Notes: a model not told the origin generated them from the sequence alone. A stretch of 64,000 nucleotides of DNA from an uncultured virus (IMG/VR IMGVR_UViG_3300028299_000005) (IMGVR_UViG_3300028299_000005); one strand, 5' to 3'. Counted from the first letter of the stretch, positions 1,733 through 57,349 are shown. Translations and numbers: made by a program.

Positions 1733-1741
1733 TGTATATAT

Positions 1742-3075: not shown

Positions 3076-3097
3076 TTGTTTAGTTATCTTTTTTATA

Positions 3098-3119
3098 GGG
3101 CGCAACTAAGGCTGCGCCC
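3098..3119. other. GC-rich hairpin between ncRNA cassette 3 and the RT start
   Basis: GGGCGCA-ACTAAGGC-TGCGCCC. Confidence 0.6.
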
Positions 3120-3121
3120 TT

Positions 3122-3464: not shown

Positions 3465-3478
3465 TATTTATTTTTTTA

Positions 3479-6095: not shown

Positions 6096-6104
6096 AAATT
6101 ATAC

Positions 6105-7632: not shown

Positions 7633-7872
7633 TTTTTTGTTTTTTAGGTCCTAATGCTAAAGTTAAAGCCAAATCACAAATACTGTCTACAACAGCTTTT
7701 ATTTGGTCTCTAAATTTATCATTATTATTATTCTCTGTCATTCTTTTTTTTTCATTGATTTTTAATTTAGAGAAAAAACGACAAAAAAAATGTTTCTTCT
7801 CATAATGCTCTATTATAAACAGACGTTATTTTTTTCCTGGGATTATATATATACTATCGTTCATTTATGTCC

Positions 7873-7901
7873 TTGATTTTCTCTGTTCTATTGCTTATAT
7901 T
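7873..7901 (+). promoter_or_regulatory. sigma70-like promoter upstream of the RNAP gene
   Basis: TTGATT-17 nt-TATATT, same architecture as other promoters in the window. Confidence 0.5.
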
Positions 7902-8004
7902 TAAATGAATAGAACTTTTTTAGGTATATAATATCCGGAATTGAAAACGTCTCTGCTGGGACAAGATTCTTATACCCAAATTAACGCCAAAATATTAAGG
8001 TAAA

Positions 8005-11000
8005 ATGATTAATAATTTACTTCGACATGACACACAAAATACCGCAATTCAAAATGCATTAAAAAAATCTATAGTTGATGCATTCCCAATTGAATCCGGT
8101 GATAAAAAATTAACTCTGTCCAACATTCGAATCCCTGATACTTTAGAAAGTTGAGATTTTCCAAAACAAAAAACTTTCAAATTAGAACGTAAAAGCTGGC
8201 AAGTACCTATTTATGCAGATATTAAAATTACTGATGCAGCTGGATCACGAATTATAAGTCAAAAAAAGAATACTAAAATTGGTAATATACCAGTTCTAAC
8301 AAATCGATTTACCACAATTATTGATGGCAACGAATACCAAACAGTAAATCAACTCCGTCGTAAATCAGGTATTTACTCGCATATAAAGCAAAATGGTGAA
8401 CTTGAAAGTGAGTTTAATTTAGCGCAAGGTTTTAATTTTAAAATGCAATTAATTCCTGAAACACAATTATTTGTATTAATTCTAGGAAATAGAAAATATC
8501 GTCTATGAACTTTATTAAATGTTCTTGGAATGGATAGTGTTGCTATTGAAAAAGCTTGAAGTAAACCATTACTTGAAATAAATCAAAAAGGCGCTTTGAA
8601 TACTGAAGTATCAGAAATGACTTCTATTTTTAAAAAAGTTTATAATCGAGAACCAAAAGATTATAAAGAAGTTCTAGAAAAACTAAATGAATATTTTAAT
8701 GTATATACACAAGTAGACCCCGAAACGACAAGATTCACGTTAGGAGAAAGTTTTGAACATGTTACAGCTCCTGCTCTTTTAAGTGCCTCAAAAAAACTTT
8801 TAGCTATCAATAAAGGTACTTCTGAACCAGACGAAAGAGACAACCTTATTTTTAAAAAGCTGTATTCTGTTGAAGACCTATTAAGTGCACACTTTGAAAA
8901 ACAAATTCCTATTATTACTCGTAAACTTGCACGTTCTTTATCTTTAAAAGATCAAGCTGGAGAAATTATTAGTTCAAGTACTTTTGGAAAATCAATAAAA
9001 GAGTTTTTTACTACCGGTGATCTTTCTGCTACGCCTCCACAAACTAATCCAGTAACTATTGTCGAAGAATGACGTCGTACATCACCGATGGGCACCGGCG
9101 GTATACAAAGTCGACACTCTATTACTATGGAGTCACGAAATTTACAGCCCACACATTTAGGTTATTTAGATTCATTGGCCACGCCAGAATGTCTTGATAA
9201 AAAAACAGAAGTTTTTACTAAGAAAGGGTGAATATTTGCACCTGATATTACTTTAGACACAGAAATAGCTTGTAATATAAAAGGATCTTTGGAATTTCAT
9301 AAACCGCATAAAGTTTTTAAACATGAATATACAGAACAAATGTTTGGATATAAAAACTCGCGTTTAAATTATTTAGTTTCTGCTGGACACAACATATGAG
9401 CTAAAAACTATTATTCAGAAACTGATACATATGCATTATTACCAATAACAGAGTGTTATGGTAAAAAAATGCGCCATGAATTATCTTGTGATCCTTATGA
9501 AGGAAACAACGTCTCTTACTTTAGATTGCCAGGAACAGACGTAGACATAGATATAAATGACTGGGCCGAATTTATTGGCTGGTTTTTAAGTGAAGGATGT
9601 GTAATCCATTATTCCGCAGGACACACCGCTGTTTCCTTAACACAGGTAAAAAGTATCAATCCACAAAAATGACAAGAACTTAGTTCATTACTCTTAAAAT
9701 TACCTTTTGATTTTAATCATTATGAGCACTATTTTTACGATAAAAAAACTACAGAACTTCATCGTTATTTAGAAAATTTTGGCGAATACGCAAATAATAA
9801 ACATCTTCTTGACTATTATCTTGACTTACCTAAAAATGCACGTTTACGTCTTGCAAAAGGCTTGATGGCGGGCGATGGCCGTAGACAAGATCCACGCAGC
9901 ATAAGCACAAAAGTTTTGCCTTTCAAACAAGATGTATATACAACATCAAGTAAACAACTAGCTTTAGACGTTGAACGATTACTAATTGGGCTAGGTTTTG
10001 CAGTTACAGTAAATATATATAAAGATGCTCGTGCTGAACGTTACCACGATATTTTTGAAGTTAGAATTTTAGGTTTTTCTGAAGCTGTTGCAACTCCAGA
10101 AAATTATTATATGGTAAAAAGCGACGGTCATGTTTTTAGTGCTAGAGTTCCTGGAAACAAACTTTTAATAAAAAGAGAAAGTAGTTGAGCACATTGAACA
10201 GGAAATTCAGGAAGAGTTGGAATAACAGTCGGGCTAGCTTCCGAAGTTGAAAAAGATCACAATGACATGACAACTCCTGTATATACCCCAGAGGGCAAAC
10301 TAAAACATTTAAAACCACTTGAGTTTTTTAATGCAAAAATTGGTTTTCCAGATCAATATAGTTTTGAAGGGGCAGCAATAAAACCCAATAAAGGTAAAAT
10401 AAAGGTTATGTATCAAGGCGAACTCATAGAGACATCTGCAAAGGATGTTGATTATTATCTTCGTTCCGCCAAATCAATGTTTTCATTTGCAAGCAACCTA
10501 GTACCATTTTTAGCCAATACTCAAGGAAACCGTGCTTCTACAGGATCTCGTATGATCACGCAGGCCATGTCTTTAGTTGACCGTGAAATTCCACTTGTGC
10601 AATCTCGCAGAATAGATGGTGAAACCTACGAAGATCTTTTAGGTAACTATTTAAATCCTGTATTGGGTGTGAGCAACGATGGAAAACCTTACAAAACAGC
10701 TAAGATTACCAAAATTGCTGATGACTACATTTATTTAGAAACCCCTTCAGGTGAAAAGTTAAAACGCGGATTATATAAAGATTTTCCATTAAATCAAGAT
10801 GGCTTTCTTAACTCTAGTACAATGGTTAACGTAGGTGATACAGTTACTACATATCAACCTCTTGCTGAGAATAATTATTCACGAGGCAAAACTTTGGCCC
10901 TGGGCAAAAATCTTGTTGTTGCTTATATGCCATATAAAGGTTATAATTTTGAGGATGGTGCTGTTATTACAGAAAGTGCTGCTAAAAAACTTAGCCATCA

Positions 11001-14000
11001 AATGATTCATAAATCAAACATTTTCTTTAGTCCGAAATTAACTAATTTTAATTTGAAAAAATTTACGGCGTGATATCCCGAAGCGTTAAAACAAGAAAAT
11101 ATTTTAAAATTAACAGAAGAAGGATTGCCTAAAATTGGTGAAACTTTTCAGCCGGGGGAATATCTGGCAGCATATCTTGTTGAAAAAGAAATGGATGAGA
11201 CAGATCGTGCCTTAAAAAAATTAGATAAACATACATTTAGTCAACACGCAAAAAAACTTGTTGAATGGGACGAAGACGAACCGGGCGAAGTTATTGATGT
11301 AAAAAAAGTTGGAAGAAACATAGATATTTATATTAAAGCTGTTCATCCTTTTAAAGAGGGAGACAAGCTTTGTGTAGATGAAAATACTGAAATTTTAACA
11401 CGAGACGGTTGAAAATTTTTATTAGATATTTCTATAGATGACAATTTTTGTACACTTAACGCGCAAACACATGACATTGAATATCAAAATGCAGAAAAAA
11501 TAAATATTTATGATCACGACGGTCCTTTATACCAAATTCAAAATACTTTAATAGATCAACTTGTAACTCTTGATCACAAAATGTATGTAAAATTACGTTA
11601 TCAAAATAATTATGAATTATTAAAAGCATCTGATATTAAAGGTAAGCGTGTCCGTTATTTAAAAAATGGGCTATGAAAAGGCAATACCGGTATTGTACCA
11701 AAACCGTTTGTCAAACAAATGGATGATCTTGAATATGCTGCTCTAATGGGTTGATATTTATCCGAGGGTAATACAAATAAAACCTCAAATGGATATGTAA
11801 CAACTATTCATCAATCCAAAAAAATCTATCCAAATAATTATGAAGAAATTGCCCAATTAATAAAAAATTGTGGATTTACTCCAATTTATCGACCTGATAG
11901 ATTAGTTTTTAATGGTAAAGAATTTCACCAATATTTAAAACAATTTGGACATGCTCACGAAAAATTTATACCTGTAAATATTAAAAACGCCTCTTCTGAA
12001 ATTATTTTGACTTTTTTAGATGCGTATAACAAAGGCGATGGCCACACAACTAATACGGGACAGTCTGTAATTACTACAAACAGTATTCAGATGCGAGATG
12101 GCTTAATGGAATTATGATTAAAAGCCGGCTATAGTGCTTCTTATAAATTATCTGCTAAAAAAGGTGACACAATTTGTGGAAATCCTGTAAATTATGATAT
12201 TTGAAATGTTAGACAAATTAGAACTAAAAATTCGCCGCAAGTAAATCATGGACACATTCATGAACAAAATGCACAAATAGAGCAAATTATACATTATCAA
12301 GGAAAGGTGGGCTGTCCAACAACTCCTAATGGTATTATATATATTCGTCGCAATGGAAAAACTTCATGAACAGGAAATTCCGGCAGATACGGTAACAAAT
12401 CAATTGTTACCAAAATTATACCGGACGACTACGCACCACATCGCGAGGATGGAACTCCTGTTGAGATAATGTTAAATCCACACGGCGTGCCTTCTCGTAT
12501 GAACATAGGACAAATTTTAGAGACAGCTGCTGGCAAAATTGCCGTTAAAACCGGTAAACCATATATAGTAAATAATTTTGAAAATCCAGATGAAGATGCA
12601 GCAAATAAAATTAGCAAGGAATTAAAAAAATTAAATATTGAAGCAGATGAAAAACTAACTGATGGCCATACCGGAATGGCTTTTGATAATAAAATTTTTG
12701 TCGGTAATCAATATTTTTTAAAACTTAGACACATTGTAAAAAAGAAACAGGGTGTTCATAATTATGGAAGTTATGATGTAAATGAATTACCTGTAGGTAA
12801 AGGTGCACAAAAAACAGGTACTATGGAAACATATGCATACCTAGCACATGGCGCAAAAGCTAACCTAGCAGAAATGTCTACTGTAAAAGGCCGTTCAAAT
12901 GAAGAATACTGACGTAATTTACAATTAGGTTTACCGCCTGTTCCATCTAATAAGAATTTTATTTTTGATAAACTATTAGCGCATTTAAAAGGAGCGGGAA
13001 TTAATATAGACAAACAAGGTTCGCGTTTACGTATTTTTCCATTAACAGACAAAGAAACTATAAAAATGTCAAATGGCGAAATTAAAGATCCAGGTGCTTT
13101 TCTTATCGGAAAAAATCTTATGACGAGAAAGGGTGGCTTGTTTGATCCGGAAATTACAGGAGGGTTAAACGGAACACACTGGTCACATATTAATTTAACA
13201 GTTCCTGTTCCAAACCCAATGTTCTCTGATGCTATAATGAAAGTTCTTGATCTTACAGAAGATCAATTAAATAGTACCATAAGGGGTTCTTATAATATTA
13301 ATGGTAAAACAGGCGTGCCTGCACTTCTTGCAGCTTTAAAAGATATAAATGTAAAAGAATCTATTATACAATTAAAAACAGAATTAAAAAACTCTCCACC
13401 AACTAATGTAAACAAATTAAATCGTCGTATTCGTTATTTACAAACTCTTGACGAATTAAAATTAACTCCCATAGAAGCATATATAATGAAAACTGTGCCG
13501 GTATTACCTCCTGCATTTAGGCCAATATATCCTTTACAGACGGGCGATTTAATGATTAGCGATTTAAATAAGCATTATCGTGATATCGGCACAATTAATA
13601 TTGCTTTAAAAGGAGCAAAAAACGATTTAAATCCTGAAGAATTGGCAGAGGCTACTGCTTCGCTATATACATCAATAAAAGCATTTCAAGGTTTTATTGA
13701 CCCAATTAATTATTCCAGTAAAAAATATAAAGGAATTATAAAAGAATTATCTGGAAAGCAGGCATTAATTCAGGGCGCTGCATGAGCTAAACGACAAGAT
13801 ATAAGTGCACGTAGTACCATTACGATTGAACCTAGCTTAGGATTAGATCAGCTTGGTATACCAACCGATATGGCTTATAAAATGTTTAAACCTTTTATTA
13901 TACAGGATCTAAAAACACAGGGACTAAAAGCCACAACAGCTTTAAAAGAATATCAAGATAAAACTAATTTAGCATATAATTCTTTAAATACTGTTATACA

Positions 14001-17000
14001 AAATAGACCTGTATTTTTTAATAGGGCCCCCTCTTTACATAAACATGCAGTGCAAGCCTTTTGACCACAGCTTGTAACAGGCAAAGCAATTCAGACAAAC
14101 CCTTTAATAACAAAAGGTTACAATTTAGATTATGACGGAGATTCTGAGATTAATTCCGTGCTTATGTTCTTAAATAACAATTACTTACAGCAACTATCCA
14201 AATTAAATACTAATTTAGTACTTGACATACAAGAAAAAATTCCTTATATTAAAGGAGAAATTAAAATAAACCAAATAAAGAATATTATGTCAAGATATAA
14301 TGTAAAAACAGGATTAAAACAAGATGGAAAATATTATTTAGTAAACCTTGAAGATTTTCCATATGATAAAAATAAACTAATAGGAACAAAAGATCATATA
14401 GATTTTTATGAAGTTCCTGACGGTGTTGAAATTTTTGCTTACGACGAAAAAAAACAAGAAGTTTCTTTACAAAAAGTAAGTGGGTGGAGTGTTCATAAAG
14501 ATCGAGAAATATATACAGTAACTCTACAGAATAAACAACAAATCATCTCAGATGACGATCCAAGAGCAGTATATGGAATTAATCCAGGAACTTTAGAGTT
14601 TGTTCGTAACCGCCCTAAAGATTCTATTGGGATGTTAGTACCAACAGTTCGTAGCTTAACTAAAGGGTTGAAAATAAAACAACTAGATCATTTTACAGAA
14701 GGAATAGCAGACAGCAAACGATTAAAACCGACAATAGAATTAAATGATAAAACAGGTTATATTCTTGGAGCTCTAATCGGTGACGGCTGGTTTGATGCTG
14801 TTAAAGACAAATATAGATGTGTATGGTTATCTGGCATAGAAAAACCTATTCAAAAACAGCTCGAGGAATTTTTAACAGAAATTTTTAAAGAAGCCCCACA
14901 TGTTGGGCATCAAATTATGAAAACTTCTTATGGCCGAAGTGAAAAATTATGTGTTTCATCATCTGATTTTGCAAAATGGACAGCACCACTTATTGGTAAG
15001 GGCGCAAATAACAAACATTTGCCTCCCTTTTGGTTTACTGCTAACAGGAGTTTTAAATTAGGGCTATTGTCAGGATTACTAGATACCAATGGCTGCGTGT
15101 GTATTAGTCATTCAAAGGTTACGCCACAGATTGCCTACAGTTTTTGCAGCAATAGCATAAGATTAGTACAAGAAATTCAACATTTACTTTTAACTTTAGG
15201 AGTAAAAAGCAGAATCTCTTTTTCTAAAAAAACACAAACTGATAATGATTCCTGGATTTTATCAGCTTCTGCGGCAGATATGAAACTTTTAAGAGATGAC
15301 TTAATTACAGTACATGAAAGAAACAGGACTGCAATGTATACAGACAAAGCTTATCCTAATATGGATAGCAGTGCTGCTACTAAAGCTGATTTAGTACCTA
15401 TTGATTCCGCTACAACAGCTCTTTATTTAAAACGAATAGGTGCAAAACGTAACGACCTAAAAGATTTAAAAGCTCTTTATGTAACAGTGTGTAATACTAA
15501 GAAACGTGGTTATATTACTCGGCATGCAGCAAACCGATTGTTAAAAAAATACCCAGAAATTATCCCAACAACAGGCTGGAAACAAATTGTAAAAAATACT
15601 TCTGTAAGTTGGCAACCTGTGATTAGCTTTGAAAACACAGGTAAAAAAGAAACTGGCTATGACTTAACAGTTCCTGGTTATGAAACTTTTATGAGTGTTG
15701 ACGGCATAATATTATCTAATACCATGTCTATTATGACACCTATTAATTCTCTAGCTGTCGAAGAAGCTAAAGGAATGTTTCCAAGCAAAATTCTTTTTAA
15801 ACATGGAGACAATTCTTTAGTACCGAGTTTAAGTCAAGATTACTTATATGGTATTCACGAATTAAGTCAAATTAAAGATGTCTCTGCGAAAAGTTTTGAA
15901 TCTGTTGCGGCCGCTAAAAAAGCCGGCCTACCTTGAACTACGCAATTTAAATTAAAAGGTAAAAATATTACCATAGGACAACATTATTTAAATGATAAAC
16001 TCCCTACTCCGTTAAAAGACTTTACTAGACTTTTAAATAAAAAGGTTGTGAATGATTTATTAACTAAAGTGGGTAAAGAATATCCTGGTTATTTTGTTGA
16101 CCTAATAAATTCGTGAAAAGATCTTGGAAGTTTTTATGCCTATAAAGTTGGCAATACAATTTCATTAAATGATTTTGCAAACAGTAAAAGTTATCGTGAT
16201 GTCTTACTTGCCCAGGAAATGCCTGCAATTAATAAGTTAACAGGTGCAACACGTATCACGGCTTTAAATAAATTAACACAAGATGTAGAAAAAGCGCAAA
16301 ATAAAGCTTTCAAAGGTAAAAATAATATGTATAAAATGTTGGAAGCAGGATCTTTTTCCAAGCCTGACTCTGTGCGCCAAATTTTATCGATGCCTGGTGT
16401 ATTAAATGATATATATGGTAAGCCAATTTCTATTCCGGTAATAAAAAGTTACGGAGAAGGACTCGATGCCGCAAGTTATTTTACTTCTCTTTATGCAGTA
16501 AGAAGTGGAACAGTAGATCGATCTGTGAATACACAAGATACCGGTGCTTTAAACAAAGCTCTATTAAACGTAACTCGAAGACTGCTAATAACTACAGAAG
16601 ATTGTGCTACGCAAAAAGGTATTGAACTTCCAGTCGATGATAAAAACGTATTAGATAGATTTATTTTAGAAACAATTCCAGGTCTCATAAAACGTAATCA
16701 ACTAATTGATTCAGAAACTTTATTAAAATTAAAATTAAAAGGAATTACTTCTATAAAAGTAAGAAGTCCTTTAACTTGCGCTGCTGTTGATGGTATATGC
16801 CAACTTTGCTATGGTCTATTACCTAATGGATCTTTAGCACCTTTAGGAACTAATGTTGGAATATTAGACTCGCAAGCTCTTACAGAAGCTTTTACACAAA
16901 ACGTTATGAGAACTTTCCATTGTTGGCATCCAGGAAGTACTTTAATGACAGAGGGCGGCGAACTTCGAACCATAGCAGATATTGTAAATTCAAACTATCA

Positions 17001-18786
17001 AGGAAAAGTCTTAGACAAGAACAATGTTTTTGTGCAAGTTACGAAAGCTTGAAAACATAAAATAACAGCTCCTGTTGTATTTGTAAAAACTAAAAATGGT
17101 CGTTCTTTAATGTTACAAGACAACCACCCTTTACCTGTTATTACTAATACTTATATTTGCAAATATTGTGGAGGAAGATTAAAAAGTAAAAGCAAACAAT
17201 GCGCAGATTGTGCACGACGCTCTCCAAAAGCTGTTCCCAATACCAATTTAACTAACTGCACTATAAAAGAAGTAAAAGATATTCATTCTAAAAAAGAATC
17301 ATTAATATATCAAAATTTCCCATCTAATTTTGGTACTAAAAGATGAGATTGAGAATTCTCTCCTTACATGCTAGGAGCTTATATTTCAGAAGGATGCGTA
17401 AATAGAAGAGGAGATAAACTTTTAGGAATTACTTGAAGTCAAGAACCAAATACGGAAATTCATAAAAAATATGTAACAAGTTTAAATAAACCAATTTCAA
17501 ACAATAAGAATATTCGCTTGTATAATTCTAAATTAGCAGCGCGTGTAGCACAAGAATGTGGTGATTACAGCAATTCTAAAAAATTGCCTTATAATATTTT
17601 AAAATATTCGAAAGATACAGCATATCAAATTCTTGCTGGAATTATAGATGGTAATGGAACAATTTCAAGATATCCGGAAAACGGAAGAGCCTCTGGAAAC
17701 GATATTGTAATACTTGATACTACTAGTTATGCCTTAGCAAACCAATTAGTTATATTAGGCCAAGCTTTGGGAATATCTACTAATATGTTTCAAGCTACGT
17801 TTAGAACCATTAGTAATTATCAACCACTAAGAGTAACTTTTAAAATAACAAAACAGCAATTACGGATCTTCAAAAAGATATCCTTCAAAATTCAAAATAT
17901 AAAAACAGGTAAATTAGTATCTTACGTTGACAAGGCTACTATAAAGAGTATACAGCCAACTAATTATATGTATGATGAGGTGTTTGATATAGAAACTAAA
18001 TCATCTACTTTAGTAATTAACGGAATCTTTGTTCATAATTCAGGCGGGTCCGCGCTTGGTGGCGGCGGTGTGACTGAAGGATTTCCTAGAATGACTCAGC
18101 TATTAAAAGTTCCGGAAAAGTTAAGCTATAAAGCAACTTTAAGTACTGTAAAAGGACATGTAGTTGCGATCCAAAAAAATCAAACTGGCGGCTATAATAT
18201 AAAGATTGGGGGTTATGGCTCAGAAAATGATAAAAGTTTCGTGGTGCCTCCAGGAAGGACACCTATCGTTGCTTTAGGAGACAAAGTGGAACCTGGAGAT
18301 CCTTTAAGTGATGGTGTTATAAAGCCTCAAGAACTTGGAGAGTTAAAAACACATTTAGATGCTCAAAATTATTTAGTAGATGAAGCTTCAAAATTAATGG
18401 GTGGAAGTTTCTTTAGAAAAACGTTTGAGACTGTTATTCGCGGAATTAGCGATAATGCTATAGTAACTTCAGCGCCGGATAAAAGCGGTTTCTTACGTGG
18501 TGATCGCACTACTATTAGTTATCTAGACAAATTAAATAAAGACAGAAAAAAAGAAAAGATGGAACCTATAGAATATAACTCATATTTTAAATCAATAGAT
18601 ACACTAAATACTGATAGTAATGATTGACTTACTAAAATTACCTCAAACAGAATAAAAGCAGCTTTAATGACTGGTGCAGCTAAAGGACAATATGCAAATT
18701 TAAAAGGAAGAGATCCTATACCTGCATATATTTACGGAGAAAGTTTTGGAAAGCAAATAATGCCAGATAAAGGAGAATTTTATTAA
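8005..18786 (+). CDS. rpoBC: Fused beta-beta' multi-subunit RNA polymerase precursor with 4 inteins, TGA=Trp (~3593 aa)
   Basis: All + strand ORF fragments from 8596 to 18627 are in one frame, separated only by TGA (~26 by hand count). Motifs: [53 protein letters not shown]; then [54 protein letters not shown]. Confidence 0.93.
9190..10206 (+). mobile_element. Intein 1 (LAGLIDADG) in the beta TPE motif
   Basis: [14 protein letters not shown]...FIGWFLSEG...MAGDG...WTGN|S. Confidence 0.9.
11371..12378 (+). mobile_element. Intein 2 (LAGLIDADG) in the beta GDK-GRxGNK motif
   Basis: [14 protein letters not shown]...LMGWYLSEG...KGDG...RRNGKTSWTGN|S. Confidence 0.9.
14143..15720 (+). mobile_element. 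Intein 3 (LAGLIDADG) directly after the catalytic DYDGD
   Basis: Removal gives [19 protein letters not shown] and LSGLLDTNG motifs; [11 protein letters not shown]...ILSN|T C-terminus; atypical Ser start. Confidence 0.85.
14222..14250 (+). promoter_or_regulatory. sigma70-type promoter inside intein 3
   Basis: TTGACA-17 nt-TATATT; in-frame ATG at 14287. Confidence 0.6.
16921..18039 (+). mobile_element. Intein 4 (LAGLIDADG with Zn-ribbon insert) in the beta' trigger loop
   Basis: [11 protein letters not shown]...LGAYISEG...LAGIIDGNG...VFDIET...FVHN|SGG. Confidence 0.9.
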
Positions 18787-19016
18787 TGCCTAAATTTATG
18801 AATGTTGTTATTAAAAAACCATTGTCCTTAGGACAGTGATTAACAAAAAACCCGATACCTCCAAAAGACGCAGATCCTATGGTGCAAATGTTACATAATT
18901 TTCAATATCAAAAACGGTTAATAAAAGCTAAACAATTAAATCATCCTGTTTCCAAAAAAACACAAAAAGTTATTGAAAATTTAAAAAAACAACATAAATC
19001 TTGAAAAGATTTCTAA
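18786..19016 (+). CDS. Hypothetical protein (76 aa, two TGA=Trp)
   Basis: ATG overlaps the RNAP TAA (TAATG); open to TAA if TGA is read through. Confidence 0.65.
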
Positions 19017-19019
19017 ACA

Positions 19020-20231
19020 ATGTCTAAATTTTTTAAAGAAGCTAAATTAAAAAAAGATACTAAGCTTAGACGAACATTTCAAACTCTTGGTTGAAAAAAT
19101 TCATTACAAGCAAGTAGCATCACTTGACCACAGCAATATACCATGCAAGGTCACGATTTAACTGATATACTGTTTGGTGCTTCTCCTGGAAATCATCTTG
19201 CTTTTGGCTTTAGGAAAGCTAAAATATTAGATACTTTTAAATTAAAAGAAAAAATAGAAGACAGTATTGCACGTGGGTATATAGATCAAGTAAATACTCC
19301 AAAAAAATATCAGTTAATCGGTTATTTATATGAATATATTTCTCGTAAGAATAAATTAGAAGATATAAATGGTATACCACGAGCTAAAATAAAAGGTTTA
19401 GCAGAAGAAATACGAAAAGCGGAAATTAAACTTCAAGACATAGATTCGACAGCAACTATAGGAACAATGGGACTTATGTTGGGTAATATGGGCATCGGAT
19501 TATCAATGGCGCGATTAAAAGAAGATACTACGAAAGAAGGCATAATTAATTTTTTGAACATAGCTAAAAAACGTCAAGGACTTTCTAACTTAGATATAAA
19601 AATAATAGACAACTCATTGAACAGCCATTTTAATCCAGAAAAAAACTATTTGCAAACAGGAAGAATAAAAGGAATAGCTGGTCATGAATTTGGACATGCT
19701 GTCAATGCCAAACGATTTAATCAATTTTTTGGTGAAAAATCTGGTCCAAAAATTTCTGCTGTATTATATCACGGATTGGGCGATTACATGCCAATGACAG
19801 GTCATGTGTTAGGGCCTCTTGGACTTGTGCCGGTGTTTCCTTTAGCACTAGCAGCACCTTTAGTAGTATCATCGAAAGTACAAAATTTAATTAAAGGTGA
19901 TGATGCTACTACACGTCGTTACCGTTTTGGCTCTTGGGTAGCAGAACACCCCGGTACAGTTTTAGGGGGAGCTGTAATTCCTAAATTAATTGAAGAAGGC
20001 AGCGCAACAGGCAGAGGTATAAGCGAAATGATGCATCAAGCTCCCAAAGGATTAAAATTTATGGCATTTAAACAAGGCTTTAAACCGACTGCTCCTGCTT
20101 TTTTGACATATGTAACCGTGGCAGGACTTCCTACTATTGCCGGATGGGCATATGGTAAAAAAAGAAAATATGAAAAAGCATTACATAATAAAGAAAAAAA
20201 ACTATATAATTTTAAAGTCAAAAATGAGTAA
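19020..20231 (+). CDS. HExxH-containing putative membrane/virion protein (TGA=Trp)
   Basis: Starts MSKFFKEA with two in-frame TGA before 19143; GHEFGH motif, downstream IEEGSA, hydrophobic segments. Confidence 0.7.
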
Positions 20232-21612
20232 ATTTTTTAAAACAGCTTCTGAACTTCAATCACAACAAAAACGTGTTGTTGATAAATTACAAAAAACCGA
20301 CAGACTCTTAGTTTATCATGGCCTTGGTTCGGGAAAAACATTAGCTGCATTAGAGGTAGGAAAATCTTTACATTTGCCAGTTACAATTATAGGTCCTGCT
20401 TCATTAAAAGAAAATTTTCGTAAAGAACGACTAAAACACAAGGTAACCGGTGTAAAATCTAAATATTATTCTTATAGCAAGCCTCCGGAAACATTGCCTA
20501 CCAGAGATCTTTTAGTATTTGATGAGGCGCAACGTATGGGAAGAATGGAATCTCAACGATCAAATTATCCAGATAGGTATAAACCAACAAAAACAATGTT
20601 TTTAACAGGTACCCCTATTCGAAATGAACCTGCTGAACTTATTCCATTAATGCGCGGATTAGATATAAAAATACCTAGAGATAAGGCAAAATTTAATGAA
20701 GGTTTCATAGATGAACAAAAACAATATCCCGGTGTGTTTGCCAGAATATTTAGAGGTGTAAAAGCAGGCATTGTTCGAAAAGGCAAAAATTTACAAATAT
20801 TAGAAAATGCTTTTAAAGGAAAAGTTGACTATTTTGCTCCAAATTTAAAAGACTATCCCAAAATTATTAAAGAACGAATTGAAACAGTTATGTCTCCAAG
20901 ACAACAGGCTACATACAACTTAGCTCTCAAAGGCGCTTCAAATTTAAAATATAAAATAAAGCATGGTCTTTCACCAAGCAAAACGGAAGCAAGACATATA
21001 AATGCTTTTTTAACAGCAACACGTCAAATTTCAAACACTCCTGGTAAATTCAATATAAATGCTACAAATGAAGATGCACCGAAATTAAACAAGGCTATTT
21101 CTGAAATTATAGAGCATTATAAAAAAGATAAAAACTATAAAGGGGTAACATATTCAGCTTTTCTTGAGCATGGAATTGATCCTATGGAAAAACGTTTAAA
21201 GGCTATAAAAATTCCTTATGCTCGTTTTACTGGACAAACTTCTGATACTGATCGTAAAGCAATAATAAAAGATTTTAATTCTGGAAAAATAAAACATTTA
21301 CTTCTTTCAGGAGCTGGTGGTGAAGGTTTGGATTTAAAAGGCACTAAATTGCTTCAAATCCTTGAACCACATTGGAATGATCCAACTATTGAACAAGTAA
21401 AAGGACGTGTTAGTCGTTATCAGTCACATGCGCATCTGCCTCCTAAACAAAGGCAAGTCGAGATACAGACATTTATTAGTAAGCCACGAAAAACAACGTT
21501 TTTTAAACGTCAGTATAAAGGCGCAGACGAATATCTTGAAATGCTTTCAAAACAAAAAGCAGATTTAAACCAAGAGTTTTTAAACACACTGCAAAGAGCA
21601 TCAGATGGGTAA
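20224..21612 (+). CDS. SNF2/SF2-family helicase
   Basis: Starts MSKFFKTA; YHGLGSGKT, DEAQ, TGTP, GGEGLDL, QVKGRVSR. Confidence 0.88.
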   Translation: MSKFFKTASELQSQQKRVVDKLQKTDRLLVYHGLGSGKTLAALEVGKSLHLPVTIIGPASLKENFRKERLKHKVTGVKSKYYSYSKPPETLPTRDLLVFDEAQRMGRMESQRSNYPDRYKPTKTMFLTGTPIRNEPAELIPLMRGLDIKIPRDKAKFNEGFIDEQKQYPGVFARIFRGVKAGIVRKGKNLQILENAFKGKVDYFAPNLKDYPKIIKERIETVMSPRQQATYNLALKGASNLKYKIKHGLSPSKTEARHINAFLTATRQISNTPGKFNINATNEDAPKLNKAISEIIEHYKKDKNYKGVTYSAFLEHGIDPMEKRLKAIKIPYARFTGQTSDTDRKAIIKDFNSGKIKHLLLSGAGGEGLDLKGTKLLQILEPHWNDPTIEQVKGRVSRYQSHAHLPPKQRQVEIQTFISKPRKTTFFKRQYKGADEYLEMLSKQKADLNQEFLNTLQRASDG

Positions 21613-22087
21613 ATTTTTTAAACTAGCTGTTGGCCCTGTAATTAGACAGACGCCTTTAGAAAATTCACAAGCTTTATATTATAAACCAAAAGATTTAAAG
21701 GCCATGAGTGCCAATTCAATTTTTAAAAGAGAACTAGAAAAATTACCTAAAAAATGAAAGACGGAGGGGCTAATACTTTTTAATAACGTGCCCGCAAAAG
21801 ATCAAGGTTACGTAAAAGGAAAAGACATAGATAGACTTTTTCGTCGCCACGAGCTAACACATTATTTACGATATAAGCAAGGCAAAGCAGTACACGTAGG
21901 AAAGCCACACTTAAAAGGAATTATACACACTGCAATTGAAGAAATTGCTGCACACCATGCCGGACTAAAAAGATTAAATGCTCCAAAATTTAATAAAATT
22001 ATGGGTATAATTATGAATACTTATCACTCCACTAAATATATGTACCCAAAAGGTATTGTTCGAACACTCTTTACAAAAGGAAAATAA
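21605..22087 (+). CDS. Basic HExxH protein, paralog of 22395-22883 (one TGA=Trp)
   Basis: MGKFFKLAVGP start; RHELTHY...EE; TGA 21755 aligns with TGG of the paralog. Confidence 0.8.
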
Positions 22088-22089
22088 CT

Positions 22090-22395
22090 ATGGGTAAATT
22101 TTTTAAAACTGCAAAAACAAAATCAAAATTTCAAATACTACAAGACAATAAAGTACCCCTAACTCCAGAAGAAAGGACTACAGTTTTTGAGCGCAAAGCT
22201 GTTTGACATTATGGTTTCAGCAAGCATCCAATTACTGGACGTAAAGTTCAGCAGGTATCTGCTATTTGAAAAACCATAAATCCACGAACTAAAGAAGTAA
22301 CATATGTAACAAATACGCACAGAGCTTACAATACCGCACCTACCTTAAAAGGCGCTATTGAGCGTTATCATAAATTTATAAAAGAAACAGCATAA
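22090..22395 (+). CDS. Hypothetical protein (101 aa, two TGA=Trp)
   Basis: MGKFFKTA start; TAATG coupling to the next gene; absent from the ORF track. Confidence 0.75.
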
Positions 22396-22883
22396 TGGGT
22401 AAATTTTTTAAATTAGCAGTTGGGCCTGCTACAATGACTACAGAGCTTGGTCCGGGTATAGCCGCAAAGTATATTCAAGCAAAGGAATTATTAAAATTAG
22501 AAAAATCTTCGCCACAAGGAAAAGCTGAGTTAGCACAAGTTCCTTCTAAATGGAGACAGAAAGGAATTTTACTTACAAGTCCTATGAAGATACCTGATAT
22601 GCCAAATGCATCTGGTAAAGATTTAGCTAGGTCACTAAAACGGCATGAGCTAACACACTACATTCGTAGCCAAAAAGGTAAGCTAGATCATATAGGAAAA
22701 CCCTCTATTAAAGGAGTATTGCACTCTGTCAGAGAAGAAGTAGCGGCCTATCGTGGACAAACAAGCCGACTTAATGTTCCTAGGACAGCTAAATTAAAAG
22801 GAACTGCTGTTGGAGTTATTGGATCTGTTAAAGCTTTATATCCTAAAGGTGTTTTAAAAACTATTATACGCAAAGGAAAATAA
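22395..22883 (+). CDS. Basic HExxH protein, paralog of 21605-22087
   Basis: MGKFFKLAVGP; RHELTHYIR...EEVAA; YPKG...KGK end shared with the paralog. Confidence 0.8.
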   Translation: MGKFFKLAVGPATMTTELGPGIAAKYIQAKELLKLEKSSPQGKAELAQVPSKWRQKGILLTSPMKIPDMPNASGKDLARSLKRHELTHYIRSQKGKLDHIGKPSIKGVLHSVREEVAAYRGQTSRLNVPRTAKLKGTAVGVIGSVKALYPKGVLKTIIRKGK

Positions 22884-23384
22884 ATGTTTTTTTATAAGAC
22901 AGATAGCTATATTATAGTTGAGCGTCGTCATGAAATAAACGCCGAAGTTATGGACGGGCGCTTAGAATTACTTCATGATAATGAAGATGTCTATATTGTA
23001 GCACATCATCCAAATAAAAAATGATCTTATAATATAGGATGAACAGAAGAAGGTCCTTTATTTGAACTATGACCAAGAATAACTGCTTTAGGACATAAAC
23101 AAAAAATTGATCAACCCCATTTATATTATGAAGCAGTACCAAAACGTTTTTATAAAGCTTATCAAGAACTTTTTAAATTTCAGGATTTGCAAATAAATCA
23201 TGAACCTGACGAACAAAAGAAACCGATTGCAGATCCTAAACCAAATATAGTAGATTTAAGTAGCAAGACGCCACAGAATATAATTGTTAAAAAACAGTCT
23301 TCAGAAACTAGTGGACCTAGATTACAATATCCTAATGAAAAAGCCGTATATAGGTATCGACCACCAAATCAAAAAAATTCTTAA
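22884..23384 (+). CDS. Hypothetical protein (166 aa, three TGA=Trp)
   Basis: ATG abuts the previous TAA; open to TAA 23384 with TGA read through. Confidence 0.65.
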
Positions 23385-32749: not shown

Positions 32750-32824
32750 TGGCAGGCACGCGAGGACTTGAACCCCGATTCGCAAGTTTTGGAGACTTGT
32801 GTGTTACCATTACACTACGCGCCT
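32750..32824 (-). tRNA. tRNA-Trp(CCA)
   Basis: CAAGT-CTCCAAA-ACTTG; encoded CCA. Confidence 0.9.
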
Positions 32825-51855: not shown

Positions 51856-53610
51856 ATTTTTATTCCCTAAATTTTTTATACTTCATGTAATCTTTCTCCT
51901 TATTTTAATATAGTATATTTATTTGTTTATATCAAGGTAGTTATCAGTCATTTCAACTTTAGGTGCCCAAGATTTTATTGGAATTCTTCCTTCTGTAAAT
52001 ATTCTAGGCATGTGTGCCCTCCACATCAACTATATGTTTAGGAAGCATTGTTTTTGAATTAACAAACTCTTCATCCTCTTTCGTAATATACTGCATTTTT
52101 ATAATTAGTGCCGAGAGCTGTTCTGGATTTATTAAACTTAAAATATCAAAACCGTTTCTTAACTTCTCTCCTTCAGCTACTAATTGCCCATTTATAAAAA
52201 GACCTTCCCAGTCTTCTTCTGTCTGCGACTTAACTAGCGTTATATTCATGCTTTTTTTAAGTAAAGAATTTAATAATAATTGTTGAATGCAAACTTGTAT
52301 TCGTAAAACTTCATTTAGTATGTTTACAAACATACTATTGGGATTTTTTGCTATCGCTTTTCGTAAAGCTGCTATTCTTTCATTCATTTCTTCATGTAAT
52401 AGTCCTAAAGCATTACTCATTTGTTTTCCTCTAACCATTTTTCGTTTTGTGTGAACCACACATTAGGAATTTTCTTTGAAAAATCTTTTTCAGTTGCAAA
52501 AATTTGTATTCCTTCGTAATCGATAAAATATCTAATTTGCATAAAATCCGAGTCGGCTACAAAAATTTCAAAATTTACTTTTCCAAGCCTGTTCTGCGAT
52601 TGCTTTCTTAAAGCTAACTTTAATCTAACAGATTCTAATTCCATATATTTTATAGCTAGTTCTTTAGTATTAAAATATAAAGAACCTCTTAGAAGGGATC
52701 CGTCTTTAAAAAAAGTTTGCTCATAAATTAGTTCGATACACGCCGGATTTTTCATTTTTTTCTGTCTCCCTAAACATTATTAATAATTTTTTGTTATTTC
52801 TAATAAAAAACAAATTGTGTGGTCTTGTCGCTTTTGGGTGTATATCTCCAGTATATTTTACAAACACATATGTATCATTTACACTTGTTACAACACCTAA
52901 ATTTTCTTTTATATGAATACCCCCGTCATTTCCGGCTGCAATAGCTTCCCGCATTAGATGCTCAGGAATATAAAGCACCGCATTGCCTTTTTTAAATTCT
53001 GCAGTTGTTCTTTCTTTCATCTTAATTTCTCTTATTCAAAAGTTTGATCCACAAAATCCCAACATTTTTGACGAAACTCTAATTTTATACGTTCTCGATT
53101 CATATAATCTTCTGCGTTAACAATACTTCTCTGTATTCCAGCAACGCCTTTGATCATGCGTATTGCATTTTCTATATATTCTAGATCATCATCTTTTATA
53201 TCACTATCTAAAACAATTGTAAATCCTTTTATTCTATCGGTCATTTTTTTCTAATTGATTTTCATCTAAATTCCAAGCATCCATTCTTTTCATAGCTTCT
53301 AACACAGATTTTTGAGGCATTAATTTTCTTTTTAAAATGCACCATTTGACAATACCCCAATACTTGTCTGCTCTCCACATTTCATACAAACTTCTAATTT
53401 CAGAATAAGGCAATTTCTCAGCATCCACACACGCAAATGCAAAAATATCATTACAAACTACACGTAGTTCTACTGTTTCGTCTGTGCTCTGACTTGAAAT
53501 TAGCTCACCGTTTAGGAGCATATGCGCTAACGCTGCCTCTTCATTAAAAAGTGTCTCGCCATTTTTTCCTTCGAGATATACATCTTTTTTAACAATCATA
53601 TTATTTATTT

Positions 53611-54096
53611 TCATTTCAATAAATGTCCAAAGATTTCTTTTTTATCAGATATATATTCATTAGTTCCCAAAAGAACATGAAAACAGCCTTTTTGTGCTGT
53701 TAGTTCTCTCATCCATTTTATCCAATTCGTCTCCAGTAATTTTACAAATGAGAAGTCATTACCACGTGTCTTATACCTATTAATATACTCAATCTTCAGA
53801 AATGGATTTGGATATACGAGCGTAAACTCTAGACCTTCTTCTACTAGGGCATCGCGCACTTCTTTATGACTGCTAATAAAAATAATATCTGCTTTTCCTA
53901 TATTAGCTTTTATATATTCTATATAATTAGTGGGAAAACCCACTTTATTAAAAGTAGAGCTGTCACTGTCTAATATAACTTTTCCATCCATCCCACCAAA
54001 CACAGTATAAAAATATGATTTACCTGTGCCTGGAAAAGCTGAACATAACAATGTTTTCTTTTTCTTAAATTTTTTCACAATAGGTCTCCATAACAA
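53611..54096 (-). CDS. P-loop kinase-like protein
   Basis: SAFPGTGKS; LDSDSS; ends in TGA within an ATGA overlap. Confidence 0.7.
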   Translation of the reverse strand: MLWRPIVKKFKKKKTLLCSAFPGTGKSYFYTVFGGMDGKVILDSDSSTFNKVGFPTNYIEYIKANIGKADIIFISSHKEVRDALVEEGLEFTLVYPNPFLKIEYINRYKTRGNDFSFVKLLETNWIKWMRELTAQKGCFHVLLGTNEYISDKKEIFGHLLK

Positions 54097-57154: not shown

Positions 57155-57349
57155 TCATTGTCGATGATTCCAAGCTTCTGTTACTTCACACTTAGTAGAA
57201 CCACTTACACGTACAGAGTGATTGTATTTTATACAACCGAGCTCATAGGTATCATGCTTACCGAACGGCCAAAAAATATTTCGATGTCGGAGTACTTGTG
57301 GTATATGCGCACAAAAAGGACAGGGTAACAAATCAATTTTTCTTTTCAT
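57155..57349 (-). CDS. Lar-like (restriction alleviation) zinc-finger protein
   Basis: LLPCPFC...EAWN.R. Confidence 0.5.
   Translation of the reverse strand: MKRKIDLLPCPFCAHIPQVLRHRNIFWPFGKHDTYELGCIKYNHSVRVSGSTKCEVTEAWNHRQ

What the first reader, a model, noticed from the sequence alone, without database searches (positions are those of the whole stretch)
8005..23384. Strand-partitioned genetic code: TGA=Trp on the + block, TGA=stop on the - strand
Seen: + genes carry many in-frame TGA at Trp positions. Intein 2 LMG[TGA]YLSEG matches intein 1 FIG[TGG]FLSEG, and paralog PKK[TGA 21755]K matches PSK[TGG 22551]R, which supports Trp rather than Gly. Minus-strand genes use TGG for Trp and some end in TGA (53611 and 61836 in ATGA overlaps; 60652). 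Known: stop-codon recoding restricted to late genes occurs in some phages. Notable here: the RNA polymerase itself is recoded from codon 50, so its synthesis depends on the code switch. No canonical tRNA-Trp(TCA) is among the 32 tRNAs in the window.
Basis: partly seen in the sequence, partly recalled or inferred. Interest (0 to 1): 0.75.

Follow-up and report, generated by a model that had tools for sequence, protein, structure and literature searches.

The report
Phage late genes read TGA as tryptophan
A large lake-water phage spells many tryptophans in its particle-associated genes, including its own RNA polymerase, with the stop codon TGA while its other genes keep the standard code, which is a known phage trick seen here in a new lineage.

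Summary
The seven + strand genes at 8005-23384 carry 34 in-frame TGA and 18 TGG. 83 minus-strand ORFs have 178 TGG, and ten end in TGA under the standard code. TGA means Trp. Of the 11 alignable TGA sites outside inteins in the polymerase, an 84%-identical relative has TGG at 8 and TGA at 3, and a standard-code relative has Trp at 7.

The split follows gene module, not strand. The complete relative G001 has a TGA-free + block, and another relative has TGA-rich minus-strand genes.

The polymerase is not a paradox. Its homologues in phage Arash are abundant virion proteins, so it is probably a late, packaged product.

The window holds no tRNA(UCA). Eight relatives have one at a syntenic site beside the endolysin gene. 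One of them is a contig that appears to belong to the window's own phage population and ends about 1.4 kb before the window.

This architecture is already published for gut phages, so this is a new member of a known kind. One possibly new detail is that the suppressor tRNA's extra arm mimics a Trp anticodon loop.

The parts
8005..18786 (+). Fused beta-beta' RNA polymerase gene, 3593 codons, with 26 in-frame TGA (Trp) and 14 TGG. It ends in TAA.
   Evidence: Pfam RNA_pol_Rpb2_6 2e-56, Rpb1_2, Rpb1_5, Rpb1_1. (31-33% identity to Arash gp206/gp216). (84% identity to the intein-free 2019-aa orthologue in L003).
9190..10206 (+). Intein 1 (aa 396-734, C...GN|S), with 5 TGA and 2 TGG
   Evidence: Gap in L003 and L004 in the alignment.
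11371..12378 (+). Intein 2 (aa 1123-1458, C...GN|S), with 6 TGA and 0 TGG
14143..15720 (+). Intein 3 (aa 2047-2572, S...SN|T) with a LAGLIDADG domain, inserted in the DYDGD catalytic motif. It has 0 TGA and 8 TGG.
   Evidence: (LAGLIDADG_3 7e-25), and (0:8 against 26:6 in the rest of the gene, Fisher p 3.9e-5).
16921..18039 (+). Intein 4 (aa 2973-3345, C...HN|S), with 4 TGA and 1 TGG
   Evidence: (Intein_splicing).
19020..20231 (+). 403-aa protein of unknown family with an MSKFFK N-terminus and 2 TGA
   Evidence: 58% identity to the G001 orthologue, where TGA codon 36 aligns with W and codon 25 with F.
20224..21612 (+). SNF2-type helicase with 0 TGA. The start is probably the ATG at 20224.
   Evidence: Helicase_C, SNF2-rel_dom. 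(35% identity, E 2e-71, to Arash gp217, which was detected in virions). (start candidates).
21605..22087 (+). 160-aa MGKFFK protein with 1 TGA (21755)
   Evidence: the TGA aligns with the TGG-encoded W of its paralogue 22395-22883.
22090..22395 (+). 101-aa MGKFFK protein with 2 TGA
22395..22883 (+). 162-aa paralogue of 21605-22087, with 0 TGA and 1 TGG
22884..23384 (+). 166-aa protein with 3 TGA and 0 TGG
   Evidence: all three TGA sites align with W in the 64%-identical G001 orthologue.
53611..54096 (-). Minus-strand gene that ends in TGA, with an ATGA overlap to the next gene (53234-53614)
   Evidence: the 71%-identical G001 orthologue ends at the corresponding residue with another stop.
52417..52755 (-). 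Minus-strand gene that ends in TGA
   Evidence: the G001 orthologue has TGA at the same aligned position, and the sequence after it is unrelated.
57155..57349 (-). Minus-strand gene that ends in TGA
   Evidence: the G001 orthologue ends in TGA three codons later.
58340..59170 (-). Radical-SAM gene that ends in TGA. The next in-frame stop is 4 codons on.
   Evidence: G001 has a Cys codon there and 3 more residues, so this one is ambiguous.
32750..32824 (-). tRNA-Trp(CCA), the only Trp tRNA in the window. It lies in a tRNA array of about 31 genes at 30833-39349.
   Evidence: it is the window's best match (35.5 bits) to the model of the relatives' tRNA(UCA).

Best explanation
The window comes from a large lake-water phage, of the order of 200 kb if it is like its complete relative G001 (210 kb). 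It is distantly related to Salmonella phage Arash. The phage uses two readings of TGA within one genome.

Genes of the late, virion and lysis module read TGA as tryptophan. In the window these are the fused beta-beta' RNA polymerase, the SNF2 helicase and the small MxKFFK proteins. Replication, tRNA and auxiliary genes use only TGG for Trp and still use TGA as a stop.

Inferred mechanism: the host reads the standard code, so standard-code genes are translated first. A phage tRNA with anticodon UCA, encoded on the late-gene strand just upstream of the endolysin gene, is then made and is charged with Trp by the host TrpRS. No phage release factor or TrpRS exists in the complete relative. The tRNA competes with RF2, which opens the TGA-containing genes.

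The polymerase is probably packaged in the particle and used in the next infection, so its dependence on the switch is not circular.

The lineage shows stepwise TGG-to-TGA drift. The polymerase has 0 TGA in a standard-code relative, 3 in G001 and 11 in the window's exteins.

Shown here: the codon counts, the Trp meaning, the module pattern, and the conserved tRNA(UCA) in relatives. Inferred: the timing, the charging enzyme, virion packaging in this phage, and that the window's own genome holds the tRNA.
For: TGA means Trp:
- At 11 alignable extein TGA sites of the polymerase, L003 (84% identity) has TGG at 8 and TGA at 3. L004 (58% identity, no TGA in this gene) has W at 7. Arash has W at 2.
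- 4 of 5 TGA sites in two other + genes align with W, as does the site in the in-window paralogue.
- Trp frequency in the + block is 3.5 per 1000 codons with TGG alone and 10.2 with TGA added. The minus strand has 14.7.

Module pattern:
- G001 (210,208 bp, CheckV 100%) has TGA in tail fibre, baseplate, terminase, a 2588-aa fibre (32 TGA) and the polymerase. It has 0 TGA against 110 TGG in its 34-gene replication block: DNA polymerase, sigma factor, RNR, primase, helicase.
- Coding fraction rises from 0.756 to 0.848 in the window and from 0.838 to 0.903 in G001 under code 4.

TGA still acts as a stop:
- 18 of 104 ORFs in the minus-strand region of G001 at 93-176 kb end in TGA, as do 19 of 74 on the corresponding strand of standard-code G002.

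Suppressor tRNA:
- tRNA(UCA) lies at G001 65786-65883, directly upstream of the amidase gene.
- The same tRNA sits at the syntenic site in 7 of the 16 metagenome loci of 5 kb or more that were scanned, out of 25 found.
- 15 of 26 predicted pairs show compensatory changes. A1:U72, G73 and the anticodon loop CUUCAAA are each conserved in 7 of 7 sequences.
- With the family's covariance model, the next-best hits after the 8 family members are the tRNA-Trp(CCA) genes of G001 and of the window.

Link to the window's phage:
- Contigs of runs that hold 71-98% of the window's sampled words are collinear with L055 at a constant offset over six pieces. They share an exact 30-nt stretch with it.
- L055 ends about 1.4 kb before the window start in G001 coordinates.
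- L055 is heavily recoded (amidase 5 TGA and 0 TGG, portal 4 TGA), is intein-rich, and holds the tRNA(UCA).

Other:
- Arash gp206, gp216 and gp217 are abundant in virions (passages read).
- No RF-1, PCRF or class Ib synthetase domain was found in G001.
- The published model matches (passages read).
Against: - No tRNA(UCA) is in the window itself, and the window's contig could not be extended. Exact-pattern scans of viral and metagenome contigs found nothing. L055 does not overlap the window, so the claim that they are the same genome is an inference.
- Timing is not shown. No expression data were analysed, and the RNA-library contigs do not show transcription.
- Virion packaging of the polymerase is known only for Arash, at 31% identity.
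- The host and its code are unknown.
- One minus-strand case is unresolved. The TGA at 61836 is followed in frame by a 135-aa ORF (61380-61787). The overlapping ATG opens only 9 codons, and G001 has no homologue. A sense TGA on the minus strand is therefore not excluded there.
- Sense and stop TGA codons have the same following-base preference (A in 16 of 34 against 5 of 10), so context does not separate them. Late in infection, genes that end in TGA would be read through.
- The tRNA(UCA) has a long extra arm and G73, which are also features that SerRS uses (recalled, and in passages of PMC5389517 read).
Confidence: 0.85

Rival explanations
1. The whole phage, and its host, use code 4. Minus-strand TGA codons are read through, and the apparent partition is only a codon-usage difference.
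For: Several minus-strand TGA 'stops' are followed by a second stop within 1-4 codons. Sense codons before the next TAA or TAG number 1, 1, 2, 3, 4, 4, 15, 43 and 151, so read-through would often be harmless. The TGA at 61836 could join two ORFs.
Against: 83 minus-strand ORFs have 178 TGG and no internal TGA, against 34 TGA to 18 TGG in the + block. One TGA stop is conserved as TGA in G001 with unrelated sequence after it, and another orthologue ends at the same residue. The 35 replication-block ORFs of G001 contain no TGA. Relative G002 uses the standard code throughout: coding fraction is 0.862 under code 11 and 0.865 under code 4.
Confidence: 0.03
2. TGA in the + block encodes another residue. 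Candidates are Gly (code 25), Sec, or Ser inserted by a long-armed tRNA(UCA) that SerRS charges.
For: The clade's tRNA(UCA) has a long extra arm and G73. Rfam scores it best as tRNA-Sec, at 32.5 bits, below the 47-bit cut-off. ARAGORN labels it SeC.
Against: The TGA sites align with Trp, the rarest residue. That holds at 7 of 11 sites in a standard-code relative, and two of those sites are also W in Arash. None of the 11 aligns with G, C or S in L003 or L004. The tRNA has a 7/5 acceptor/T-stem and A1:U72, like the phage tRNA-Trp. Its nearest tRNAs under the covariance model are tRNA-Trp.
Confidence: 0.05
3. No dedicated suppressor is involved in this phage. The phage tRNA-Trp(CCA) reads UGA by C-A wobble, in the manner of the Hirsh suppressor, perhaps helped by an unknown inhibitor of RF2.
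For: The window holds tRNA-Trp(CCA) but no tRNA(UCA). Its D-stem has U11:A24, the pairing of the E. coli Hirsh suppressor (recalled). Borges et al. detected suppressors in only 35% of TGA-recoded genomes.
Against: U11:A24 is also the natural state in other bacteria (recalled), so it says little. The same tRNA-Trp(CCA) exists in lightly recoded G001. Eight relatives keep a tRNA(UCA) under structural selection. The contig that most likely adjoins the window has one.
Confidence: 0.05
4. The TGA codons are assembly errors, or the genes are decaying pseudogenes.
For: None beyond the fact that this is a metagenomic sequence.
Against: The 3593-codon frame has no TAA or TAG. Catalytic motifs are conserved. 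Three TGA sites are shared with L003. The same pattern occurs in independent contigs.
Confidence: 0.01

Closest known systems
TGA-to-Trp reassignment confined to late genes in crAss-like phages (Yutin et al. 2021, PMC7886860; passages read)
   Same: TGA is reassigned to Trp only in the part of the genome with late genes. Suppressor tRNAs are imperfectly matched to recoding. Close relatives differ in code. Inteins and recoding occur together in one gene. The genes of a virion RNA polymerase carry in-frame stops.
   Different: This is a different phage lineage, Arash-like rather than Crassvirales. The polymerase is a bacterial-type fused beta-beta' enzyme, not the crAss single-chain two-barrel enzyme. 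The habitat is lake water, not gut.
TGA-recoded Agate and Jade phages and the lytic-regulation model (Borges et al., bioRxiv 10.1101/2021.08.26.457843; passages read)
   Same: Structural and lysis genes are recoded and replication genes are standard. Low GC content. Near relatives use the standard code. The suppressor tRNA lies next to the lysis cassette. The host TrpRS is presumed to charge it.
   Different: No phage RF1 or TrpRS 'code change module' was found in the complete relative. TGA is not depleted as a stop in the non-recoded part: 10 of 83 ORFs in the window and 18 of 104 in G001 end in TGA. It is rare on the late strand of the standard-code relative, at 1 of 26.
Salmonella phage Arash RNA polymerase gp206/gp216 with helicase gp217 (PMC10585845; passages read)
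   Same: A beta-beta' polymerase followed by an SNF2-type helicase, in the same order and in a structural-gene neighbourhood. Identity is 31-35%.
   Different: Arash uses the standard code, has no inteins, and splits the enzyme into two genes. In the window the enzyme is one 3593-codon gene with four inteins and 26 TGA.
Phage genomes divided into blocks with different genetic codes (Mgcod preprint, 10.1101/2022.06.29.495998; abstract only)
   Same: Distinct genome blocks each use one code, opal or amber reassignment against standard.
   Different: That work describes crAss-like gut phages. No paper found in my searches names this lineage.
Zeta crAss-like phage Lera (PMC12386605; passages read)
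   Same: TGA interrupts the polymerase, helicase and terminase genes. Trp is confirmed by homologues. The phage has many tRNAs, including tRNA-Sup(TCA).
   Different: Different order of phages, and a gut source.

Membership tests
Phage block-wise stop-codon recoding, TGA to Trp (Yutin 2021, Borges 2021/22) | In-frame TGA in conserved genes at positions where homologues have Trp | tested here: met
   8 of 11 sites are TGG in L003 and 7 of 11 are W in L004. Supported.
Phage block-wise stop-codon recoding, TGA to Trp (Yutin 2021, Borges 2021/22) | Recoding limited to late, structural or lysis genes, with other genes compatible with the standard code | tested here: met
   Window. Complete relative G001. 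That the window's + block is 'late' is inferred from Arash virion proteomics.
Phage block-wise stop-codon recoding, TGA to Trp (Yutin 2021, Borges 2021/22) | Phage-encoded suppressor tRNA with anticodon UCA | tested here: inconclusive
   Absent from the window. Present in G001 and 7 metagenome relatives, including L055, which appears to be the window's own phage population.
Phage block-wise stop-codon recoding, TGA to Trp (Yutin 2021, Borges 2021/22) | Host uses the standard code | not testable with these tools
   The host is unknown. A standard code is inferred from the TGA-free, TGA-terminated minus-strand genes.
Phage block-wise stop-codon recoding, TGA to Trp (Yutin 2021, Borges 2021/22) | Close relatives that use the standard code | tested here: met
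   G002/L004: the polymerase has 0 TGA, and coding fraction is 0.862 under code 11 against 0.865 under code 4.
Phage block-wise stop-codon recoding, TGA to Trp (Yutin 2021, Borges 2021/22) | Trp at TGA shown by peptides | not testable with these tools
   No proteomic data were available.
Arash-type phage beta-beta' RNA polymerase | Rpb2 and Rpb1 catalytic domains, sequence similarity to gp206/gp216, and a helicase neighbour | tested here: met
Arash-type phage beta-beta' RNA polymerase | Protein packaged in the virion | not testable with these tools
   Shown only for Arash by mass spectrometry.
Genome-wide code 4 (Mycoplasma-type) | TGA is sense throughout the genome and never a stop | tested here: not met
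Code 25 (TGA = Gly) | TGA aligns with Gly, and a tRNA-Gly(UCA) is present | tested here: not met
   In L003 and L004, 0 of 11 sites align with G. The window's extra Gly tRNA has anticodon UCC.
Selenocysteine decoding | tRNA-Sec with an 8/5 acceptor/T arm, and Sec or Cys in homologues | tested here: not met
   The tRNA is 7/5 and scores below the Rfam cut-off. The sites align with W. SelA, SelB and SECIS were not searched.

The most novel reading that the evidence does not exclude
The suppressor of this clade is not a plain anticodon mutant of tRNA-Trp. It is a distinct, conserved tRNA(UCA) whose long extra arm is a second 'anticodon arm': a 5-7 bp covarying stem with a loop N-U-C-C-A-A-N in 7 of 7 sequences. 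That loop matches the tRNA-Trp anticodon loop, which reads CUCCAAA in the window's own tRNA-Trp.

Together with A1:U72 and G73, this decoy could give the host TrpRS the CCA identity element that the real UCA anticodon lacks. That would explain how such phages obtain faithful Trp insertion at UGA in a standard-code cell without a synthetase of their own.

Earlier notes of this scan report a similar hairpin in unrelated recoded phages, so it may be a convergent solution.
Probability: 0.3. Interest if true: 0.7.

Novelty: new member of a known kind. Interest (0 to 1): 0.38.

Why it matters
The main finding extends block-wise TGA-to-Trp recoding, known mostly from gut phages, to a freshwater lineage of large phages. 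This lineage has a bacterial-type polymerase that is probably carried in the virion.

The lineage also gives a clean three-step series. The polymerase exteins hold 0, 3 and 11 TGA, and the site comparisons are consistent with TGG-to-TGA replacement in late genes. The presence of a tRNA(UCA) tracks that series.

In practice, such genomes are badly mis-annotated under code 11. The polymerase breaks into more than a dozen ORFs.

The more interesting lead is the extra arm of the suppressor tRNA, which resembles a Trp anticodon loop. If it is an identity decoy for TrpRS, it would answer an open question raised by Borges et al.: how suppressors are charged correctly. It would also offer a natural design for orthogonal opal suppressors.

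Tried and rejected
- Whole genome: none is held for the window.
- Extending the window: exact 49-nt pattern scans of viral contigs and metagenome contigs found nothing.
- Close DNA relatives: megablast of the + block against INPHARED phages found no match. The helicase as a query in viral contigs found no relative.
- Suppressor in the window: relaxed ARAGORN, with and without introns, gave only noise with TCA anticodons, such as antisense hits of real tRNAs. blastn of the G001 tRNA(UCA) against the window and G002 gave only chance 10-14 nt matches.
- Odd tRNA-like stretch at 31563-31630: it folds no better than shuffles (z -0.67), and I could not assign an anticodon.
- Codon context as a discriminator of sense and stop TGA: no difference.
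- 'Backup stop' enrichment after minus-strand TGA: 6 of 9 are followed by a stop within 4 sense codons, against roughly 0.25 expected by my rough hand estimate. This was not tested formally and I do not rely on it.
- Read laying on the G001 tRNA region at 80% likeness: the tRNA itself was not covered by the main contigs, and one contig has 792 other letters there. On its own this says nothing about presence. The geometry matched L055 afterwards.
- Rfam found no intron family in the interrupted vWA gene or the split RtcB gene.
- Literature on a Trp-anticodon-like extra arm in suppressor tRNAs: searches (listings only) and passages of PMC5389517 gave nothing relevant. This is not proof that it is unpublished.
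- Host identification was not attempted beyond the run labels (lake water).
- Supplementary tables of Borges et al. were not opened (bioRxiv supplements are closed). Those of Yutin et al. were not opened either. Either set could list relatives of this clade.

Full report
WHAT IS THERE. The window is 31-40% G+C (measured over 2-kb stretches) and gene-dense. It holds a tRNA array, a tmRNA and many small ORFs on the minus strand. Under the standard code the + strand between 8005 and 23384 breaks into short ORFs. Under code 4 it becomes seven tightly packed genes.

The first gene, 8005-18786, is 3593 codons with 26 in-frame TGA. Pfam identifies RNA polymerase Rpb2 domain 6 (2e-56), Rpb1 domains 1, 2 and 5, a LAGLIDADG domain and intein splicing domains. 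It is therefore a fused beta-beta' polymerase.

Alignment with intein-free orthologues defines four inteins: aa 396-734, 1123-1458, 2047-2572 and 2973-3345.

Downstream lie a 403-aa protein of unknown family, an SNF2-type helicase and four small proteins. Three of the proteins in the block begin M[GS]KFFK.

In total the + block has 34 TGA and 18 TGG in 5076 codons, and all seven genes end in TAA.

THE OTHER STRAND. I selected 83 non-overlapping code-11 ORFs of 60 aa or more on the minus strand, outside the + block. They contain 178 TGG, and their stops are TAA 58, TAG 15 and TGA 10.

Counting no internal TGA in code-11 ORFs is circular. Three observations make the point independently:
- These ORFs tile the strand.
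- They contain 777 off-frame TGA.
- Code 4 adds almost nothing real on this strand. The extensions are short tails or spurious overlaps.

Pfam shows auxiliary functions on this strand: RtcB, ClpP, MoxR/vWA, a reverse transcriptase, nucleotide enzymes and a radical-SAM protein.

One of the ten TGA ends, at 4983, is not a true gene end. The vWA gene is interrupted there by an inserted ORF that resembles a homing endonuclease. Relative L004 has the uninterrupted 517-aa gene. No Rfam intron family matched.

For four other TGA ends, G001 has an orthologue to compare:
- 52417: G001 has TGA at the same aligned position, followed by unrelated sequence.
- 53611: the orthologue ends at the same residue with another stop.
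- 57155: G001 ends in TGA three codons later.
- 58340: G001 has a Cys codon and three more residues, so this case is ambiguous.

The TGA at 61836 is followed in frame by a 135-aa ORF. The overlapping ATG opens only nine codons. This case stays open.

MEANING OF TGA. The phage database gave only distant relatives, at 30-33% identity: Salmonella phage Arash, Vibrio phage D181 and others. Against these, two TGA sites fall on invariant Trp and the rest on varied residues.

IMG/VR gave two much closer relatives. L003 belongs to G001 (210,208 bp, CheckV 100% complete). L004 belongs to G002 (an 81-kb fragment). Their polymerases are 2019 and 2020 aa, have no inteins, and carry 3 and 0 TGA.

At the 11 alignable extein TGA sites of the window, L003 has TGG at 8 and TGA at 3. 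L004 has Trp at 7, and N, K, P and F at the others.

None of the 11 polymerase sites aligns with Gly, Cys or Ser in L003 or L004. TGA therefore means Trp.

No site has TGA in L003 and TGG in the window. The comparison is consistent with drift from TGG to TGA.

MODULE, NOT STRAND. In G001, TGA-containing genes are + strand structural genes: collagen-like tail fibre, baseplate wedge, terminase (with an intein), a 2588-aa fibre with 32 TGA, and the polymerase. The 34-gene minus-strand replication block has 0 TGA and 110 TGG. It encodes DNA polymerase, sigma factor, RNR, primase, helicase and resolvase.

However, a + strand block of G001 at 154-165 kb also has 0 TGA. In relative L076, minus-strand GNAT and glycosyltransferase genes carry 11 and 6 TGA. 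In this window, strand happens to coincide with gene module.

THE POLYMERASE 'PARADOX'. In Arash the homologues gp206 and gp216 and the helicase gp217 sit next to the portal gene. By mass spectrometry they are among the most abundant proteins of purified particles. gp206 had the most spectra of all (passages read). The window's helicase is 35% identical to gp217.

The simplest reading is that the window's + block encodes virion-carried proteins. They would be made late and used at the start of the next infection, so recoding them is what the published model expects. Packaging in this phage is inferred, not shown.

THE SUPPRESSOR. The window has no tRNA(UCA). G001 has one at 65786-65883 on the late-gene strand, 18 nt upstream of an amidase/endolysin gene. 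That position corresponds to about 9.6 kb before the window's first base.

Using the G001 portal as a query, the metagenome scan returned 25 loci. I scanned the 16 that are 5 kb or longer. Seven carry a tRNA(UCA) at the syntenic place.

The seven distinct sequences, G001's among them, fold as a cloverleaf with a long extra arm. 15 of 26 predicted pairs show compensatory changes. A1:U72, G73 and the anticodon loop CUUCAAA are invariant.

A covariance model of the family scores the eight members at 69-113 bits. The next-best hits are the tRNA-Trp(CCA) genes of G001 (38.8 bits) and of the window (35.5 bits). It finds no member in the window, in G002, or in L072, L076 and L078.

G001 has no release-factor domain and no TrpRS-type synthetase domain, so charging must rely on the host.

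IS THE tRNA IN THE WINDOW'S OWN GENOME? Runs from lake-water metagenomes and metatranscriptomes hold 71-98% of the sampled words of window 1-8000. I laid their contigs on the G001 tRNA region. They are collinear with it but carry 792 letters where G001 has 417.

Locus L055 has exactly this geometry:
- All six aligned pieces of one contig sit at a constant offset of -3092 from L055.
- A 30-nt loose end of the contigs is an exact match in L055 at the predicted place.
- L055 ends about 1.4 kb before the window start in G001 coordinates and does not overlap the window.
- L055 is as distant from G001 as the window is.
- L055 is heavily recoded: coding fraction rises from 0.665 to 0.919 under code 4, the amidase has 5 TGA and 0 TGG, and the portal has 4 TGA.
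- L055 is intein-rich and holds the tRNA(UCA) at 4882-4976.

I rate it about 0.8 likely that L055 is the neighbouring part of the window's genome.

A POSSIBLY NEW DETAIL. The extra arm of the tRNA(UCA) is a 5-7 bp covarying stem. Its loop reads GUCCAAA in 5 of 7 sequences, UUCCAAA in one and GGUCCAAG in one, so UCCAA is invariant. This is the sequence of a tRNA-Trp anticodon loop, which is CUCCAAA in the window's tRNA-Trp.

Two earlier notes of this scan (e1-7844719 and e1-1067908) describe a similar second hairpin in unrelated TGA-recoded phages. I confirmed the feature for this clade only.

It might serve as a decoy identity element for TrpRS. That is speculation, because the geometry of TrpRS binding was not examined. 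My literature searches found no description of it (listings only, passages).

COMPARISON WITH WHAT IS KNOWN. The following are all in print:
- TGA-to-Trp reassignment confined to late genes.
- Imperfect matching between suppressors and recoding.
- Standard-code sister phages.
- Recoded inteins.
- Recoded polymerase and helicase genes.
- A suppressor tRNA next to the lysis genes.
- Genomes described as blocks with different codes.

Borges et al. found suppressors in only 35% of TGA-recoded genomes, so a window without one is not unusual.

The following appear specific to this case:
- The lineage and habitat.
- The degree of recoding in a 3593-codon polymerase gene with four inteins.
- TGA is still used as a stop in about one tenth of the non-recoded genes, whereas the late strand of the standard-code relative has almost none: 1 of 26 against 19 of 74. 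This fits the published 'depletion first' route for the late genes only.
- Intein 3 has 8 TGG and no TGA, against 26 TGA and 6 TGG in the rest of the gene (p 3.9e-5). This suggests it arrived recently from a standard-code source.

VERDICT. This is a new member of a known kind, of moderate-to-low interest as posed. The tRNA lead is worth a bench test.

Noticed in passing
window 26661-27257 (-) and 26209-26703 (+): A phage-encoded tmRNA (Rfam 88.9 bits, 26880-27257) abuts a group I intron match (73.9 bits, 26661-26891). An HNH endonuclease ORF lies on the opposite strand next to it. G001 also has a tmRNA at the syntenic place, with tag GKNIPVNLLAQGQVGHSNFAYAG by ARAGORN.
   Followed up: no
window 38798-39076 (-): A full-length but weak match to bacterial RNase P RNA class A (34.4 bits against a 100-bit cut-off, E 5.7e-8, model 1-367 compressed into 279 nt), inside the tRNA array. 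It may be a reduced phage RNase P RNA or a chance match.
   Followed up: no
window 50415-51855 (-): RtcB RNA ligase is split into two ORFs, 51364-51855 (N-terminal part) and 50415-51095 (C-terminal part). About 240 nt lie between them that the intact 394-aa G001 orthologue lacks. No Rfam intron family matched.
   Followed up: partly
window 3479-6095 (-): A vWA-domain gene next to a MoxR ATPase is interrupted after its SGSMSG motif by an ORF with a zinc ribbon and a REase_MTES_1575-like domain (4107-4967). L003 shares the interruption, and L004 has the intact 517-aa gene. The splicing mechanism is unknown.
   Followed up: partly
window 14143-15720 (+): Intein 3 of the polymerase, in the DYDGD catalytic motif, uses only TGG for Trp (8 to 0). 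The other inteins and the exteins use mostly TGA. This suggests it arrived recently from a standard-code genome.
   Followed up: partly
window 19020, 21605, 22090, 22395 (+); G001 187447 and 92055: Several late-block proteins share the N-terminus M[GSA]KFFK. This may be a targeting or processing signal for particle-carried proteins.
   Followed up: no
window 31563-31630 (-): A degenerate tRNA-like stretch (Rfam 30.9 bits, partial) follows a stray T-arm-like fragment. No anticodon could be assigned. The window's set of about 31 tRNAs has no tRNA-Asp.
   Followed up: partly
window 61380-62030 (-): The TGA at 61836 sits before a run of ten A and is followed in frame by a 135-aa ORF. It could be a real stop, a read-through fusion or a slippery site. 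G001 has no homologue.
   Followed up: partly
window 2173-3105 (-): A reverse transcriptase (RVT_1, 1.9e-21) lies near a GP88-family gene and is conserved in L003 and L004. It may belong to a diversity-generating retroelement. No repeats were checked.
   Followed up: no
G002 (L052) 34629-34706: The standard-code relative carries a tRNA with anticodon CUA (an amber suppressor type) in its tRNA array. There is no sign of TAG recoding: coding fraction is 0.870 against 0.876.
   Followed up: partly
L055 7040-9124 and 12265-14673: The contig that probably adjoins the window has inteins in an actin-like (Volactin) gene and in a glycosyltransferase gene. The phage appears unusually rich in inteins.
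   Followed up: no
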